Shown: one piece after another, positions 41,918-63,764 of the stretch
Numbering within the stretch: position 1 is the stretch's first letter
Layout: each line of letters begins with the position of its first letter
Origin: a virus
Lineage: Duplodnaviria; Caudoviricetes
IMG/VR virus record: IMGVR_UViG_3300020045_015293
Location: 1-64,000 of that record
Direction: 5' to 3' (one strand)
DNA: 64,000 bases
Notes under the pieces: model-generated
Databases searched by the model: none
What the model was told of the DNA's origin: nothing
The model's input: the letters and a program-made list of their open reading frames with translations, nothing else
Program-made: the position numbers and the translations under genes

Positions 41918-42022
41918 ATGAAAAATAAAATGTCATATAGATCCTTTAGTTGGTCAATTTGTCCCGGTGCACAACGCGTGCATGGAGAAGATACTAAGGG
42001 CTATAAAGATGTTATTGTATAA
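41918..42022 (+). CDS. Leader peptide 1 MKNKMSYRSFSWSICPGAQRVHGEDTKGYKDVIV
   Basis: Hand translation; follows ATATTTATA and precedes a terminator. Confidence 0.7.
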   Translation: MKNKMSYRSFSWSICPGAQRVHGEDTKGYKDVIV

Positions 42023-42047
42023 AACTATAAATTAACAATATTTTAAG

Positions 42048-42073
42048 AAGCCCATTGAAAAATGGGCTTTTTT
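42048..42073 (+). terminator. Intrinsic terminator (attenuator) ahead of tRNA block 1
   Basis: AAGCCCATT-GAAA-AATGGGCTT plus T tract. Confidence 0.85.
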
Positions 42074-42077
42074 ATTC

Positions 42078-42150
42078 GGTGACTAAGCTAATCTGGTGAA
42101 AGCGTATCCCTGAAGAGGATAAGAGTTCGGGTCGGAACCGAGAGTCACTG
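42078..42150 (+). tRNA. tRNA-Phe(GAA), atypical T-loop GTCGGAA
   Basis: Manual cloverleaf; loop CTGAAGA. Confidence 0.75.
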
Positions 42151-42297
42151 CAAAAATAAAAGTTAAAAGTTAATAGCGGTTCGCATTTAAATGGCAAGTA
42201 GTAGAGGTCCAAACTCATAAATCTATCCAACTCCTGAGGGCTGGAAGGTACCCAAGAGTAATATCAGGCAAGTTAAATGTACTTTTATTTTAAATAC

Positions 42298-42368
42298 GCG
42301 GGTATGGTGCAATGGTAGCATAAGTGATTCCAAACCACTTGATAAGAGTTCGAACCTTTTTATCCGTG
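42298..42368 (+). tRNA. tRNA-Trp(CCA)
   Basis: Manual cloverleaf; loop TTCCAAA. Confidence 0.9.
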
Positions 42369-42373
42369 CAAAT

Positions 42374-42446
42374 GACTCTATGGTGAAATTGAATATCATT
42401 CTTCTTTCCTAAAGAAGCGTTTCAGATTTGAATTCTGATAGAGTTA
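42374..42446 (+). tRNA. tRNA-Arg(CCT)
   Basis: Manual cloverleaf; loop TTCCTAA. Confidence 0.85.
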
Positions 42447-42455
42447 CTAAAATAT

Positions 42456-59014: not shown

Positions 59015-59323
59015 ACCGTACCGAGTATTGGAGAAGGATTTTTAACCGATTAAATAACGAAAAATGATAACAGAACAGGATTTACACGAATACAATAAAT
59101 GGCTAATGGAAGTTTGGAATCCAAAACAACTTAACATACCATTTGCTATTGATGCACCGAAGGCATTTTTAGACCACAGAAGCAAGGTTAAAAATCTTTC
59201 TTCCAATACTTTGTTAGGTGATAGTTTGCCGATTAAAAGCAACTGCCCTGACTGTGGAACTGAATGTGATAATGTGATACACTTTTGCCCGAAGCGATAA
59301 TGTTAAGGCAAATTTCACCTAAC
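59015..59323 (+). mobile_element. attC-like hairpin plus GTT..AAC inverted-repeat cassette (ORF 59064-59300)
   Basis: Arms 59024-43/59190-210; IR 59213-230/59307-323. Confidence 0.55.
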
Positions 59324-59350
59324 GCTCGGATTTAAATTGACAGGAGGTTC

Positions 59351-59381
59351 ATATCCCCTTGGAATATAGGGGATATTTTTT
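59351..59381 (+). terminator. Intrinsic terminator
   Basis: ATATCCCCT-loop-AGGGGATAT plus T tract. Confidence 0.8.
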
Positions 59382-59752
59382 AAAATTATATAAATTAAGT
59401 ATTAAAGAATATTTTAAAATAAAAAGTTATGAAAAATAAAAATATTAGAAGAATATTATGTATAATTGGAATAATAATTGCTATAATTGGAATAATTTTT
59501 CATTTTCCTCCATTAGATATGATTTTTTGTATAATTGGTGGAGGTATGACAGGGTATTTTTCATTTGATTTATTTTAAATTTTTGATATATTTATATATG
59601 AAAAATAAATTTATGGAGAGAACAATAGGATAGATAAGACCGCCTTAAAATAATTTAGTAGTGATATAAGTGTTACATCGCTAACCAAAACAATGAGAAA
59701 TATACACTTATAAATTTTCTCTAAACTTATTTAAAACAAATGGAGGTAAACA

Positions 59753-60232
59753 ATGAATAAAATATTTAAAACATTAGGAACAAGAGAAGAAGTTGACTTA
59801 ATACCATATATTACAGAATATTTAATTAAATATCCAGAAACTGAAATATTAATTGGTTGTGATTCTCAAAATAGAAAACGCAATACTGTATATGCAACTT
59901 GTGTAGTATTATATAGGCCCCAAAAAGGTGGTCACGTATTATATGCACGTCAAGAATTACCAAGAGTACGTGTTATTAAAGGTGAATTTGATAAAATGCG
60001 TTTATTAAATGAAACTTGGTTTTCAGTAGAAGTAGCTGAAGCAATTAGAGAAGGTGTTGGTAGAAGGGCAACATGGATTGATATTGATATAAACAATGAC
60101 AAAAAATGGAAAAGTAATACTGTATTAGCAGAAGCTTTAGGTTTAGTAACTGCATATGGATATTCACCAAGGTATAAAAATTCTCAATTTACACCTGTTG
60201 TAACATATTGTTGCGACAACTTAGTAAAGTAG
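59753..60232 (+). CDS. YkuK/DUF458 RNase H-like protein; ends in TAG
   Basis: IGCDSQ, KGGH, RLLNE, IDIDIN..SN. Confidence 0.8.
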   Translation: MNKIFKTLGTREEVDLIPYITEYLIKYPETEILIGCDSQNRKRNTVYATCVVLYRPQKGGHVLYARQELPRVRVIKGEFDKMRLLNETWFSVEVAEAIREGVGRRATWIDIDINNDKKWKSNTVLAEALGLVTAYGYSPRYKNSQFTPVVTYCCDNLVK

Positions 60233-60364
60233 AGGAATTAAAATTTAAAATAAACCTATATAAAAGGGGATTTTGTTAACCAAAGTCCCTTTTTTAATTT
60301 TACGTCACTTAAATAAAAGATTATGTCAAATAAAAAAATCAAAAAATTAATCAAAAAAGTTTGG

Positions 60365-60463
60365 AAAAAACTATCACAATAAAAAATAAGCTGTCCTTCT
60401 CTGTAATCTACTGTCCATGCGACCGGACATAAAAAAATTATTAATTAAAATAAATGTTATGAA
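60365..60463 (+). repeat. 99-bp direct repeat, copy 1 (copy 2 at 63414-63512)
   Basis: 5 mismatches between the copies. Confidence 0.9.
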
Positions 60464-62755
60464 CCCAATTAAAGTACCAACAATCAATGTAATTCCTCAA
60501 CCCAATATATTTGTGTTGGAAGAAGATTAAGTTATGAAATTAAGTAATGATAAAATAAAAGAACTAAATGATAAATTCTTAGGAAAAAGAATTGAAATTC
60601 CTCATAGACATTCTCAAGGACTTGGTTCACCTAAAGAAACAGTAGCTGGTATTTGTACTTTTATAGGATATAATTCACATTTTCCTAATAAAGGGTTGCA
60701 AGTAACTATTGATAGAATGCCTATAATTAATGTTGATTATACTCAAATTAAATTTATATATTAATAAAATAATTTAATTATGACAACAGAACAATTTATT
60801 ATACTTATAATATTGAACCTACTTATAATTACTCCTATTATAATAGGGATTTATAAAGTACAAAAATGGTGGTTTATAGTATTGATTTTTCTTGCTTTCT
60901 TTTCATTGATTACTATTGATGGGATCTTTATATCATATGTAACAGAAGGAAACAAGAAACCAGTTACAACTCCAATAGATAGATATGAACAGGTAATAAT
61001 ACCAAATGACACTCTCTATCGTAAAATTAAATAACTATGAAACTACTTAATCTGATATTTTTTGCAGTTACATGTTATTTTATGGTGACATATAATCCTC
61101 TGTCATTCTTTTCAGGATTGGGGTTTGGATATACATTATCACGAATAAAACCTACAAAATAAATAATGAAAAATGAAAGTTGAAATAGCTGCTGAAAGGT
61201 GTTTTTGGATTTACGATAGGACTATCAAAGTAAATAGTTTGCCGCCCGTTGGGAGTAAAATAGAACTTGATGGTGAAGCAATGTTTATCGTTAAATGGCA
61301 TTATTATAGGGGGCATAAAGATTGGAGGGGAAGGCTTATTTGTAGATTAGTTGGAGAATTTAAGTTTGTAGAAAAAGAAGAACAAGATAAATAATAAACC
61401 ATTTTTAAAATAATTAATTGAGTATGAAAATCGGAAAATTGAAAGTAAAATTTGTAATGAGTACTGGCAATGTAGTTGTGGTTAAGTGTAAGAAAATTAA
61501 TATGACAAAACTAAGCGGCTCAAAAGGAAGTAGAGAGTGCGAGATTACTGCCGCCGACAGATTATGGAGTATTGACTTAGACCATGTTGTTGCTGTTACT
61601 GCAAAATGGTGTCTGTTTTAAAAGTAATACCTATTTTGGGATATGAAAATGATTAATTTGGAAGAAGCAAAAAAAGTTATTGCAGAGTATCTAAACAAGG
61701 ATGCTTATATTCTTGCAAACATTAAGCGTTGGTGGGGAGAAAATGGCGCAGATGATAATTCGTGCCAACTATCTGAATATTGGGATTCGTGTGAAGAAAC
61801 AATTAAATATTCAAAAAAGAAAGTTGATGGCAGAAAGTACAACGGCAACCATCACAATTTCGCAGGGAAGAAAAACCATAACCAATAAGTACAGTAACCA
61901 ATTAAAATTAATGATATATGAAAAAATCTGAAAAGTACTTTGTTGAAAGAATTTGTATGGGAGGGGATTGTACGGCAAAGTCACAAAAGTTCATATATGC
62001 TCCGGCTGCTCAAACAGCGGCATCAATGTTTTCCTCTGAAGTATTGGATATGGCTATTAAAAGAGTTAATAGGGGTGCTAATATTAATGGGATAAAAGGC
62101 TTGTGTGCAAAGAAAGACGTTATCGCTATATTAAAAGAACTTCAAAAAGAAAAGTTTTCAATACAGTAACCAATAACCATTAAACAATAAAATTTATGGC
62201 AAAGACAGCTATGCAGGAATTGATTGAAAGACTTGAAGATTATCTATCATCCTCATTTAATGTGGCAATACCAAAGCATATAAAAAGAGAATCACTTGAA
62301 AAAGAAAAGCAGCAGATAATAGATGCTGTTCAGTATGGGGTTAATAGTGTAGGCCAATTCAATACAAATAATCCAAAATACAAAACACCCGAAGATTACT
62401 ACAACCAAATCTTTAACCAATAACCCTACGGGGAATAAAAATGAATTATGGAAAGAAATGATGTTTACGCTGCTATTAACAGCGAAAGAGATTATCAGAA
62501 CGAATTATGGAACGGAACAAAATCAAGCCGCCAACCATCGGATAGTCCTAATGCAATGGAAAGAACGATTGATGAGTTCGCATTGTATGTAACAAGATAT
62601 ACAAATCGTTTAATTGAAGTATGTGGCACAACAGACTATCCAGAAGAAAAGATGGAAGTGTTCAGAAAGATAGCTGCTTTATGTGTCGCTTGTGGCGAGG
62701 CTCATGGTATGCTAAAAAGACAATAACCCTACGGGGTGAAGTTCTTTAAAATATT

Positions 62756-62932
62756 GCGGGTATGGCGAAACTGGCAGACGCATTGCCTCCTTTTGAAATA
62801 AGCTGATGGATAAAGGCAAGTATAAAAGGGAATGCTTATTAGCACTGAATATTGACGAATATTCTTTGATGCAGGAAATATTTGGCTCCGTAAAACCTCT
62901 CCCTTCGTATGAGTTCGATTCTCATTACCCGC
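62756..62932 (+). ncRNA. tRNA-Leu-scaffolded RNA with 25-nt anticodon loop and greatly expanded variable region
   Basis: Canonical acceptor GCGGGTA/TACCCGC, D arm and T arm; 177 nt. Confidence 0.65.
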
Positions 62933-63764
62933 ACATCTATTAAGTTCTTTGTACTGGTAAGTGGTGGCGGAGGTTTCTATGAATAAAAAGCTACCCCGTT
63001 GATATTACGGGACGGATTCTGACCGCCCACTGCCAGTACATTTTTTAAACAGTAAACATATGAAGCCATTAGAAAGAAAATTGCTTAAAAACAAGATAGC
63101 AAATAAACTTGTTTCTTACATTCAAAAGGAGGGTATTAAACTTTCTGATAAAGATTTCAAAGCCGTAATAAGAATGACAATCAGAAAATATTTAAAGTTG
63201 AAATCTATAATCTAAAAACAGATAACAATGGCAACAAGAGAAGAAACACTTGAAATGGCACACCTTGACAAGAGTTATATGACTCCACCAAATGTCAATT
63301 ATACCACTGTATATAAAGCAATGGATATGTGGGCAAAACAGGAATGTGCTGCTAAAGATGCAGAAATAGAAAGGCTACATATTTTGATTGATGGCTTAAA
63401 TAAAATAATTGATAAAAAACTATCACAATAAAAAATAAGCTGTCCTTCTCTGTAGCCTAGTGTCCTTGCTACCGGACATAAAAAAATTATTAATTAAAAT
63501 AAATGTTATGAAATCAGTAATTAAATATTATAAAAAAAAATATTTTGCTTTTATTAAAAAGAGATTTTTGGGTATTCCTTATTTATTATTTGTAAAGTAC
63601 TATCCTGGTTCGGATGAGCTTTTTACACGCATTATACCGCCATTTGTGTTTTTATATGAACATGATTCAATAGAAGAAGCACAAAGAAGCATTGACGAAT
63701 ATTTTAAAAGAATTTAATTTATTTTTATTATTTAATTTTTAATATTTATATCAAATTTATTGAT

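What the first reader, a model, noticed from the sequence alone, without database searches (positions are those of the whole stretch)
41918..63040. Integrated translation-rescue island
One 21-kb region combines a near-complete tRNA set, two codon-sensing attenuators, boxA-like sites, an RNase P RNA, Y RNA candidates with Ro60, a Pth2-like gene gated by amber codons, an amber suppressor, a 2H phosphoesterase, a CYTH protein and an RNase H-like protein. Inference: an inducible system to replace, mature, repair and recycle tRNA when host defences attack translation.
Basis: inference. Interest (0 to 1): 0.8.

Follow-up and report, generated by a model that had tools for sequence, protein, structure and literature searches.

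The report
Phage tRNA operons with self-sensing controls
A large AT-rich phage packs about 30 tRNA genes, a miniature RNase P ribozyme, Ro60 with Y-RNA-like partners and a stop-codon-gated tRNA hydrolase into two operons that appear to switch on when decoding is slow, but only some of these parts travel together in related phages.

Summary
There are about 30 tRNA genes covering all 20 amino acids, plus a CUA suppressor. There are two promoter/leader-ORF/terminator cassettes, and their codons match 15 of 16 and 12 of 12 downstream anticodons. The region also holds a 194-nt RNase P RNA with a covarying P4 helix and no specificity domain, a YrlA-like permuted tRNA mimic, Ro60, a PTH2 gene with two in-frame TAGs, a 2H phosphoesterase, a CYTH protein and a PF04308 RNase H-like protein.

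Relatives support separate modules, not one obligate island. In all 12 Ro60 relatives, Ro60 lies in or beside a tRNA array; wherever an array's start was examined, a roster-matching leader and terminator stood in front of it. In 80 other phage loci the PTH2 gene carries an N-terminal TAG in 76, and 67 of those have a CUA tRNA within 6 kb. Miniature RNase P RNAs sit in or beside tRNA genes in 8 of 8 other loci. PTH2, 2H and CYTH are absent from five Ro60-bearing relatives (one genome-wide syntenic), and no miniature RNase P pattern turned up in the four searched.

The region is best read as demand-sensing tRNA supply operons carrying mobile accessory modules. A link to host defence is untested. 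This scan found all three unusual modules before on other DNA, and I found no paper describing them.

The parts
41904..41914 (+). Promoter-like motif ATATATTTATA ahead of leader 1
   Evidence: All 5 exact copies in the window are on the + strand. They lie ahead of both leaders, just after tRNA-Asp (51318), ahead of the Y-RNA candidate (59586) and at 12233. The same motif precedes the leaders of relatives.
41918..42022 (+). Leader ORF 1 (34 codons). Its core RSFSWSICPGAQRVHG lists the 12 amino acids of tRNA block 1
   Evidence: It is the only 16-residue window in the six-frame translation of the 88.6-kb record made solely of these 12 amino acids with all 12 present. Its codons are cognate to 15 of 16 block-1 anticodons; only AGG for Arg-CCU is missing (read).
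42046..42076 (+). Intrinsic terminator T1, ending 1 nt before tRNA-Phe
   Evidence: A 9-12 bp stem, GAAA-type loop and U tract, -15.8 kcal/mol. GGGCU inside the leader can pair with its 5' arm at -10 kcal/mol.
42078..45927 (+). tRNA block 1: 16 tRNAs (Phe, Trp, Arg x3, Cys, Pro, Ala, Val, Gly x2, Gln, Ser x2, His, Ile-GAU)
43123..44037 (+). HNH homing-type endonuclease inside the array
   Evidence: PF13392, E 1.7e-5.
44270..44372 (+). YrlA-like permuted tRNA mimic (T arm, acceptor-like hairpin, D arm)
   Evidence: RF02553 at 40.7 bits, E 5e-6. The same architecture aligns in L026, L006, L010, L011 and L013.
45478..45671 (+). Miniature RNase P RNA (catalytic domain only). Its 3' end abuts tRNA-His
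   Evidence: RF00010, E 3e-12. P4 is AAC(U)CAGG/CCUGGUU with the bulged U. P4 covaries across 9 phage sequences: CG:5 GC:4, AU:6 CG:2 GC:1.
47385..47474 (+). Leader ORF 2 (29 codons, stop codon TAG). Its core LINTNILTLDYMDNLNEDK lists the 9 amino acids of block 2
   Evidence: It is the only 19-residue window in the record made of this set with all 9 present. All 12 block-2 anticodons have a cognate codon, including ATA for Ile-UAU and the terminal TAG for tRNA-CUA.
47464..47531 (+). Antiterminator strand CAUCAGGCU (47464-47472) and terminator T2 (47499-47531)
   Evidence: The 9-bp perfect pairing with the terminator 5' arm is -16.1 kcal/mol, against -17.1 for the terminator.
47535..47545 (+). 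boxA-like motif GTTCTTTGAAA. It is one of 9 sites (42820, 43066, 44518, 47535, 48481, 49457, 50954, 62741, 62944)
   Evidence: All sites are intergenic, on the + strand and inside the region.
48326..55204 (+). tRNA block 2 (Asn, Tyr, Glu, Asp, Ile-UAU, Met, Thr, CUA suppressor, Lys, Leu x3), interspersed with small ORFs and unassigned GC-rich RNAs
52442..52513 (+). Amber suppressor tRNA (anticodon CUA)
   Evidence: ARAGORN and Rfam tRNA at 42.1 bits. TAG ends only 2 of 155 ORFs.
53219..53692 (+). CYTH-domain protein (N-terminal EIERR motif)
   Evidence: Atlas feature score 0.96 and TM 0.90 to CYTH clusters; phrog_6660. No hit in the relatives.
53689..54186 (+). NlpC/P60 peptidase (cargo with no tRNA link)
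   Evidence: PF00877, E 2e-32.
54356..54715 (+). PTH2-family gene gated by TAG at codon 4 (54365-54367) and codon 43 (54482-54484)
   Evidence: PF01981 at 30.5 bits. All invariant residues are kept. The same first TAG is present in L037. An N-terminal TAG is present in 76 of 80 phage homologues.
55446..56000 (+). 2H phosphoesterase (HITL and HCTI motifs)
   Evidence: PF13563 at 32.3 bits; Acb1 below its cutoff. An orthologue at 44% identity sits in the same place in L037.
56022..56684 (+). SprT-like metallopeptidase-fold protein
   Evidence: PF10263 at 27.1 bits.
57438..59003 (+). Ro60 (TROVE) orthologue, the last large gene before terminator T3
   Evidence: PF05731, E 6e-13; phrog_850, E 9e-28. 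12 relatives at 57-70% identity all carry it in or beside tRNA arrays.
59351..59376 (+). Intrinsic terminator T3
59650..59705 (+). Y-RNA candidate: stem AUAAGUGU/ACACUUAU enclosing UACAUCGC, behind a promoter-like motif. Further copies of the motif are at 49718 and 51086
   Evidence: In L037 the same motif heads a YrlA-like RNA in the same Ro60-PF04308 gap. It also occurs next to YrlA-like hits in L011, L013 and L014.
59753..60232 (+). PF04308 RNase H-like protein, followed by terminator T4 (60262-60294)
   Evidence: PF04308, E 1e-16. It is syntenic with Ro60 in L003, L005-L008, L026 and L037.
62756..63040 (+). Two unassigned structured RNAs: a tRNA-like RNA with an insertion of about 100 nt (62756-62936) and a long-stem RNA (62951-63040), each behind a boxA-like motif
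   Evidence: Read from the sequence. No Rfam or ARAGORN hit.

Best explanation
The region holds two leader-peptide-attenuated tRNA supply operons of a large phage that uses the standard genetic code, with several separable accessory modules riding in them.

Control (inferred). Each operon starts with a promoter-like motif, a short ORF that carries one codon for almost every tRNA behind it, and an intrinsic terminator. A ribosome that stalls on any of these codons leaves an in-ORF segment free to pair with the terminator's 5' arm, so transcription runs on into the array. Fast decoding lets the terminator form. Repeated boxA-like sites may keep the polymerase termination-resistant inside the operon, but that is a weak inference.

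Maturation (inferred). The miniature RNase P RNA is cut out of the same precursor at the 5' end of tRNA-His. It probably works with the host RnpA protein to trim the many phage pre-tRNAs, several of which have odd elbows.

Quality control (inferred). By analogy with the bacterial Ro60/Y RNA/PNPase complex, Ro60 with YrlA-like and UACAUCGC RNAs probably handles misfolded RNAs or 3' trimming.

Amber gate (inferred). The CUA tRNA licenses translation of PTH2, whose product recycles peptidyl-tRNA.

What is shown and what is not. Shown: the anatomy, the codon-anticodon matches, the conserved pairings and the comparative linkages. Not shown: any activity, or what triggers induction. The 2H, CYTH, SprT-like, NlpC/P60 and HNH genes are variable cargo of unproven relevance.
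For: Codon match:
- Leader codons match 15 of 16 and 12 of 12 downstream anticodons.
- Each leader core is unique in the six-frame translation of the 88.6-kb record.

Switch:
- Terminators lie directly before the arrays. The antiterminator alternatives are 9 bp at -16.1 kcal/mol for leader 2 and 5 bp at -10 for leader 1.

Relatives carry the same cassette with different rosters:
- Leaders with all 20 amino acids precede single arrays in L026, L006, L009 and L010. Each is the most diverse of 59-74 short ORFs in its locus.
- Split leaders match split arrays in L011, L013 and L014.

Ro60:
- In most of the loci where terminators were scanned, Ro60 follows a tRNA array and is itself followed within about 350 nt by an intrinsic terminator.
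- YrlA-like modules occur in all clades examined.

Miniature RNase P RNA:
- P4 covaries across 9 sequences. All 8 other loci have tRNA genes on the same strand, and five have one within about 40 nt.

PTH2:
- 76 of 80 phage homologues carry an N-terminal TAG, and 67 of those have a same-strand CUA tRNA within 6 kb.
- 0 of the 4 ungated homologues have one (Fisher p about 5e-4 by my own arithmetic, not a tool result).
- The same TAG site is kept in L037.

Operon boundaries:
- Only four + strand terminators lie between 41.9 and 60.3 kb, three found by the scan and T1 read directly from the sequence.
- CYTH, PTH2, 2H and Ro60 therefore share a terminator-bounded unit with tRNA block 2.
Against: - There are no expression, ribosome-stalling or activity data.
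- The antiterminator of leader 1 is only 5 bp.
- Internal promoter-like motifs at 51318 and 59586 mean that genes in operon 2 need not depend on attenuator 2.
- The boxA identity rests on a consensus recalled from memory.
- The YrlA and RNase P matches are below Rfam gathering scores.
- The YrlA-like RNA lies 13 kb from Ro60, outside the 4-kb criterion of Chen et al. 2014 (PMC4201824).
- Most protein cargo is absent from the Ro60-bearing relatives.
- The leader-roster statistics were framed after the pattern was seen.
Confidence: 0.6

Rival explanations
1. One reading: one integrated counter-defence island. It is induced when host anticodon nucleases or other defences damage tRNAs. It then replaces them (arrays), matures them (RNase P), repairs them (2H, CYTH), checks them (Ro60/Y RNA) and recycles them (PTH2).
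For: The attenuators would respond to loss of any rostered tRNA. Phage tRNAs are proposed to counter tRNA-targeting defences (PMC10264068, title and abstract seen). A 2H enzyme with both HxT motifs could heal 2',3'-cyclic phosphate ends. PTH2-2H-Ro60-PF04308 keep their order in L037.
Against: I found no ligase, kinase-phosphatase or other repair partner in the region. 2H and CYTH are missing from five Ro60-bearing relatives, and from nearly all of the 80 PTH2 loci: 1 has 2H and none has CYTH. The 2H protein also weakly matches the anti-CBASS Acb1 family, which has nothing to do with tRNA. The sensed signal is decoding speed, which a codon-usage mismatch or host shut-off would lower just as well. 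NlpC/P60, SprT and HNH have no tRNA role.
Confidence: 0.2
2. Accretion without integration. The tRNA region is a hypervariable hot spot, seeded by homing endonucleases, where unrelated mobile genes and RNAs collect. Being neighbours reflects where insertions are tolerated, not a shared function.
For: Between the syntenic flanks (about 38.4 to 80.6 kb of the record), only four proteins have homologues in the genome-wide syntenic relative G001. There are two HNH endonucleases and dozens of orphan small ORFs. The modules occur separately in other phages.
Against: The pairwise linkages are far from random. PTH2 goes with tRNA-CUA in 67 of 76 gated loci, always on the same strand. Ro60 sits in or beside an array in 12 of 12 loci. 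Miniature RNase P sits next to tRNAs in 8 of 8. Leader 2 ends in the suppressor's own codon.
Confidence: 0.15
3. A transitional state on the way to TAG reassignment ('code 15'). The suppressor is the main actor, and PTH2 and the other genes only deal with by-products of read-through on host and phage messages.
For: TAG ends only 2 of 155 ORFs. A CUA tRNA is present. The window's first TAG aligns with Gln in many homologues (HQKL, NQKL). TAG read as Gln is the known phage recoding (bioRxiv 10.1101/2021.08.26.457843, abstract seen).
Against: Apart from PTH2 and the leader stop, no domain-bearing gene in the 88.6 kb uses in-frame TAG. The gate sits at codons 3-5 in 76 of 80 homologues, which looks like a regulatory device and not drifting codon reassignment. 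Only about 49% of the genome is in hand, so late genes are unseen.
Confidence: 0.1

Closest known systems
Leader-peptide transcription attenuators of enterobacterial operons (trpL, hisL, the multivalent ilvGMEDA and thr leaders, and pheM of pheST); textbook knowledge
   Same: A short ORF rich in the codons being sensed, followed by an intrinsic terminator. An alternative pairing whose 5' strand lies in or at the end of the ORF. Several amino acids sensed at once.
   Different: The controlled genes are tRNA genes, not biosynthetic or synthetase genes. The leader carries one codon per downstream anticodon, up to all 20 amino acids in relatives, rather than runs of one codon. One leader ends in UAG, which a tRNA of its own operon reads. 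Twelve papers in the library hold 'leader peptide', 'attenuation', 'tRNA genes' and 'bacteriophage' together; none describes this.
Bacterial class A RNase P RNA (Rfam RF00010; E. coli M1 RNA)
   Same: P1-P4, the CR-I, CR-IV and CR-V sequences, and a P4 helix with the bulged U kept through compensatory changes.
   Different: It is 194 nt long and lacks almost the whole specificity domain and P18. It is encoded by a phage inside a tRNA array and scores below the Rfam threshold. The natural analogue in size that I recall is the type T RNA of Pyrobaculum; that is from memory and was not tested.
Bacterial and mycobacteriophage Ro60 (Rsr) with YrlA Y RNAs (Chen et al. 2014, PMC4201824)
   Same: A TROVE protein encoded with RNAs that contain a permuted tRNA-like domain on the same strand. 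Phage examples are already known (22 phages in that paper).
   Different: Here Ro60 usually follows a tRNA array that starts with a leader attenuator and has a terminator close behind it. The best YrlA-like hit is 13 kb away. The nearby candidates share UACAUCGC rather than the published GNCGAAN0-1G motif.
Stop-codon-recoded phages with suppressor tRNAs (TAG read as Gln, code 15; Borges et al. preprint 10.1101/2021.08.26.457843), and prfB-type autoregulation through an in-frame stop codon
   Same: A phage-encoded CUA tRNA, avoidance of TAG as a stop, and an in-frame stop codon used as a translational gate.
   Different: The genome otherwise uses the standard code. The gate is confined to a PTH2-family gene, at codons 3-5 across the family, and to a leader ORF. 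That preprint never uses the term 'peptidyl-tRNA hydrolase'. The XacN1 authors could not find a target for their phage's CUA tRNAs (PMC5852040).
Translation-gene clusters of jumbo phages (for example XacN1 and Atu_ph07; PMC5852040, PMC6102473)
   Same: Tens of tRNAs covering all amino acids, suppressor tRNAs, peptidyl-tRNA hydrolase and tRNA-processing enzymes in one genome.
   Different: Those papers describe gene content, not regulatory wiring, an RNase P RNA or a Ro60 linkage.

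Membership tests
RNase P RNA, bacterial class A (RF00010) | P4 helix with bulged U, formed by CR-I and CR-V | tested here: met
   AAC(U)CAGG/CCUGGUU shows two compensatory changes against the consensus. It covaries in 9 phage sequences.
RNase P RNA, bacterial class A (RF00010) | Specificity domain (P7-P14) present and Rfam gathering score reached | tested here: not met
   48.2 bits against 100. About 140 model positions are replaced by about 35 nt.
RNase P RNA, bacterial class A (RF00010) | Cleaves pre-tRNA 5' leaders | not testable with these tools
   Needs an in vitro assay.
YrlA Y RNA (RF02553) | Permuted tRNA-like domain (T arm, acceptor-like stem, D arm) | tested here: met
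YrlA Y RNA (RF02553) | Gathering score reached, within 4 kb of Ro60 on the same strand, and a GNCGAAN0-1G motif (PMC4201824) | tested here: not met
   40.7 bits against 69, and 13 kb from Ro60. I saw no exact motif. The candidate at 59650-59705 is within 0.7 kb of Ro60 but has no tRNA-like domain.
Ro60 / TROVE (PF05731) | TROVE domain above the curated cutoff | tested here: met
   49.1 bits against 23.
PTH2 peptidyl-tRNA hydrolase (PF01981) | Domain above the cutoff with the family's invariant residues | tested here: met
   30.5 bits against 23. All 13 invariant columns are kept.
PTH2 peptidyl-tRNA hydrolase (PF01981) | Hydrolyses peptidyl-tRNA | not testable with these tools
   The substrate of this phage clade is unknown. 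It could act on the suppressor tRNA itself.
Leader-peptide attenuator (trp type) | Short ORF with the sensed codons, terminator, and mutually exclusive antiterminator overlapped by the ORF | tested here: met
   Leader 2 has a 9-bp alternative, -16.1 against -17.1 kcal/mol. Leader 1 is weaker, 5 bp at -10. Relatives.
Leader-peptide attenuator (trp type) | Read-through rises when the cognate charged tRNA is scarce | not testable with these tools
   No RNA run was listed.
boxA / Nus-dependent antitermination site | Match to the boxA consensus and binding of NusB-NusE | tested here: inconclusive
   The motif is repeated 9 times and confined to the region. The likeness to UGCUCUUUAACAA is recalled from memory, and binding cannot be tested here.
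2H phosphoesterase (PF13563) | Two HxT/S motifs and a domain above the cutoff | tested here: met
   HITL and HCTI. 32.3 bits against 27.
CYTH (PF01928) | Pfam domain hit | tested here: not met
   No Pfam hit at E 0.01 and no PDB sequence hit.
CYTH (PF01928) | Triphosphate-tunnel fold and N-terminal ExExK/R motif | tested here: met
   EIERR at residues 6-10. Atlas TM 0.85-0.90 to CYTH clusters.
Code-15 (TAG to Gln) recoded phage | In-frame TAG in many genes | tested here: not met
   Only PTH2. The other apparent cases are start-codon artefacts. Half of the genome is unseen.

The most novel reading that the evidence does not exclude
The region is a closed feedback regulon for translation capacity. 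Two roster leaders measure decoding of every phage-supplied codon. The second leader ends in UAG, so the suppressor tRNA feeds back on its own operon. The suppressor in turn licenses a PTH2-family enzyme that acts on the products of suppression. A phage RNase P ribozyme and Ro60/Y RNPs are made from the same precursors to mature and police the tRNAs. On this reading, a virus carries a self-regulating, partly RNA-based tRNA biogenesis pathway of its own.
Probability: 0.25. Interest if true: 0.85.

Novelty: new variant of a known kind. Interest (0 to 1): 0.72.

Why it matters
If the wiring works as read, phages do more than carry spare tRNAs. They would measure decoding speed codon by codon and adjust tRNA output. 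They would supply their own ribozyme for tRNA 5' maturation. They would also use a suppressor tRNA as a translational key for a tRNA-recycling enzyme.

This extends attenuation logic from amino-acid operons to tRNA genes. It gives a natural catalytic-domain-only RNase P RNA to study. It offers a target gene for the orphan CUA tRNAs long noted in standard-code jumbo phages. It places bacterial-type Ro60/Y RNA in a defined operon context with tRNA precursors as likely clients. Each claim can be tested with simple reporters and in vitro assays.

Tried and rejected
- Widespread TAG recoding: the in-frame TAGs in Cpn10, a sigma factor and a 386-aa ORF all lie upstream of the real start codons. I dropped this reading.
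- Rfam at gathering thresholds shows only tRNAs.
- The whole-record RF00010 search missed the miniature RNA because of its prefilter.
- A strict DNA pattern for the RNase P RNA found nothing in viral contigs. A looser one found 9 loci, one of them a coding false positive.
- BLAST of the RNase P region against five relatives gave only noise.
- INPHARED holds no close relative.
- The Rfam Trp_leader (E 1.7), STnc430 and tmRNA fragment hits are not significant.
- ARAGORN found no tmRNA in the window or in the rest of the record, although the close relatives have one.
- PDB sequence searches for the CYTH and 2H proteins gave nothing useful.
- Sequencing runs: none was listed and no RNA holder was listed.
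- The all-20-amino-acid property alone is less rare than it looks: 0.65-1.9% of six-frame windows of 44-51 residues have it. The argument therefore rests on position, rank within each locus and block-specific matching.
The acceptor stem is as described, but the gated site aligns with Gln in many homologues, so the inserted residue stays open.

Full report
**Setting**

The window is the first 64 kb of an 88.6-kb IMG/VR virus record that CheckV rates as 49% complete. It has 24% G+C, and the long ORFs and every annotated feature are on the + strand. No close relative is in INPHARED.

**What is there**

tRNAs. ARAGORN finds 21 tRNAs between 42298 and 55204, including one with anticodon CUA. Rfam adds four more. 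A relaxed ARAGORN run adds Ser-UGA, Ile-GAU, Tyr-GUA and Met-CAU. About 30 tRNA genes therefore cover all 20 amino acids. Roughly nine are non-canonical, and three of those rest on the relaxed scan only.

Proteins.
- Ro60/TROVE
- PTH2, with TAG at 54365 and 54482
- a 2H phosphoesterase with both HxT motifs
- a CYTH protein, found by fold and by its EIERR motif only
- a PF04308 RNase H-like protein

They also show two HNH endonucleases, an NlpC/P60 peptidase and a SprT-like protein.

RNase P RNA. The RNA at 45478-45671 scores below the Rfam threshold (48 bits, E 3e-12). It keeps CR-I, CR-IV, CR-V and a P4 helix with the bulged U and two compensatory pairs. Almost the whole specificity domain is gone. 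A pattern scan found eight more such RNAs in viral contigs of 78-416 kb. All eight loci carry tRNA genes on the same strand, and five have a tRNA within about 40 nt of the RNA. RNAalifold recovers P4 with covariation. I take the RNA as a real member of a phage family of miniature RNase P RNAs.

**The 'inducible' claim**

Only four intrinsic terminators lie on the + strand between 41.9 and 60.3 kb (plus T1 read). Two of them follow short ORFs that sit behind an ATATATTTATA motif.

Leader 1 has a 16-residue core that uses all and only the 12 amino acids of the tRNAs between it and leader 2. Leader 2 has a 19-residue core that uses all and only the 9 amino acids of the tRNAs behind it. Each core is the only window of its kind in the six-frame translation of the whole record. 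At codon level, 15 of 16 and 12 of 12 anticodons are represented. The matches include ATA for the rare Ile-UAU tRNA, all three Leu isoacceptors, and the leader's own TAG stop for the CUA tRNA.

Leader 2 contains a perfect 9-nt copy of the terminator's 3' arm, giving -16.1 kcal/mol against -17.1 for the terminator. The alternative for leader 1 is only 5 bp.

The decisive support comes from relatives found through Ro60. Every array start that I examined has the same promoter-leader-terminator cassette, with a roster that follows that phage's own arrays. Leaders of 44-51 codons holding all 20 amino acids precede single arrays. Complementary leaders precede split arrays; for example, LDTLHLDHTSSTCESS stands before Ser, Thr, Cys, His, Leu, Asp and Glu tRNAs. 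Holding all 20 amino acids is not very rare in itself (0.65-1.9% of windows). However, in L026, L009 and L010 the leader is the only short ORF with all 20 amino acids, out of 59-74 in the locus. I found no paper describing this. Earlier notes of this scan report the same device in other phages.

**Ro60 and Y RNAs**

In all 12 relatives Ro60 lies in or beside a tRNA array. In most of the loci where I scanned for terminators, it follows an array and a terminator stands within about 350 nt of its end.

YrlA-like permuted tRNA modules occur in every clade examined, all below the Rfam threshold.

A second motif, UACAUCGC placed just inside a covarying stem, occurs three times in the window. One copy lies 0.7 kb after Ro60. 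The same motif heads a YrlA-like RNA in the same intergenic gap of contig L037, and it sits beside the YrlA-like hits of L011, L013 and L014. These RNAs are reasonable Y-RNA candidates. The published Ro60-binding motif (PMC4201824) was not seen.

**The amber gate**

PTH2 is the only domain-bearing gene in the record that needs TAG read-through. TAG ends only 2 of 155 ORFs.

A closer relative, L037, has PTH2 at 70% identity and keeps a TAG at the same first site. It also keeps the gene order PTH2, tRNA-Leu, 2H, Ro60, PF04308.

Across the best 80 of 315 viral loci that encode this PTH2 clade:
- 76 have a TAG 2-5 codons after the start.
- 67 of those 76 have a same-strand CUA tRNA within 6 kb.
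- None of the four ungated genes has one.
- Most of the nine gated loci without a suppressor are cut off just after the PTH2 gene.

Sixteen of the 80 also have Ro60 within 6 kb. The recoding papers I could search do not mention such a hydrolase. The XacN1 authors could not find a target for their phage's CUA tRNAs. Earlier notes of this scan report the same cassette elsewhere.

**Is it one island?**

G001 is a genome-wide syntenic relative at 35-58% protein identity. Between the conserved flanks, only Ro60, PF04308 and two small proteins are shared with it.

PF01981, PF13563 and the CYTH protein are absent from five Ro60-bearing relatives, three of them at least 97% complete; the one exception is a weak PTH2-like hit far from Ro60 in G005. 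The miniature RNase P pattern is absent from the four of them searched. No CUA tRNA or RNase P hit appeared in the relatives' Ro60 loci that I scanned. The close relatives carry a tmRNA that the window lacks.

The region is therefore a mosaic of separable modules that recur in pairs:
- leader, array and Ro60
- Ro60 and Y RNA
- Ro60 and PF04308
- PTH2 and tRNA-CUA
- miniature RNase P and arrays

This phage happens to unite them and cross-wires them through UAG. I found nothing that bears on host defence as the trigger, and no RNA repair partner for the 2H or CYTH proteins.

**Verdict**

The region is best described as demand-sensing tRNA supply operons with maturation, quality-control and recycling modules, rather than a proven counter-defence system.

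Noticed in passing
L102:6737-6810, L107:7299-7373, L115:7740-7893: The three PTH2 homologues without an N-terminal TAG have odd tRNAs about 1 kb downstream, where the CUA suppressor usually sits. ARAGORN reads them with irregular anticodon loops: 'ttca' in L102 and L115, and an unassigned 'tc' in L107. They could be another kind of suppressor or a four-base decoder.
   Followed up: no
L116:~6001-6312: This PTH2 homologue, on a 676-kb contig, has TAA rather than TAG at the gate position (MKET*IYNRLY). No tRNA was found within 6 kb.
   Followed up: no
L038:3906-12051: A 467-kb contig places an ungated-looking PTH2 next to a CUA tRNA, a tmRNA, three Thr tRNAs, a Thg1-like tRNA-His guanylyltransferase and an IF3 gene.
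   Followed up: partly
L013:255-323: A sub-threshold HDV-like ribozyme hit (RF02682, 36 bits, E 0.005) lies directly after tRNA-Pro at the head of an array.
   Followed up: no
window 44110-44280: A 56-aa Lys/Arg-rich ORF lies just upstream of the YrlA-like RNA. It contains an RNR tripeptide, as RNase P proteins do, but has no Pfam hit. It could be a small RNA-binding protein.
   Followed up: partly
window 62756-62936 and 62951-63040: The first is a tRNA-like RNA (acceptor, D arm and T arm) interrupted by about 100 nt. The second is a long-stem RNA. Each follows a boxA-like motif, and neither is recognised by Rfam or ARAGORN.
   Followed up: no
window 49481-49808, 50968-51240, 51330-51450, 51700-51950: Several GC-rich, ORF-free stretches between block-2 tRNAs remain unassigned. 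One ends in an acceptor-like stem plus ACCA.
   Followed up: no
L026:13428-13821, L003:685-1081, L007:2049-2430: The close relatives carry a tmRNA in or next to the Ro60 tRNA region, in L026 right after the PF04308 gene. Neither ARAGORN nor Rfam found a tmRNA in the window, and ARAGORN found none in the rest of the record.
   Followed up: partly
window 5300-7234; G000 81664-82368: The phage encodes a GroES/GroEL pair and a sigma-70 region-2 protein. Their apparent in-frame TAGs are artefacts of upstream extension.
   Followed up: yes
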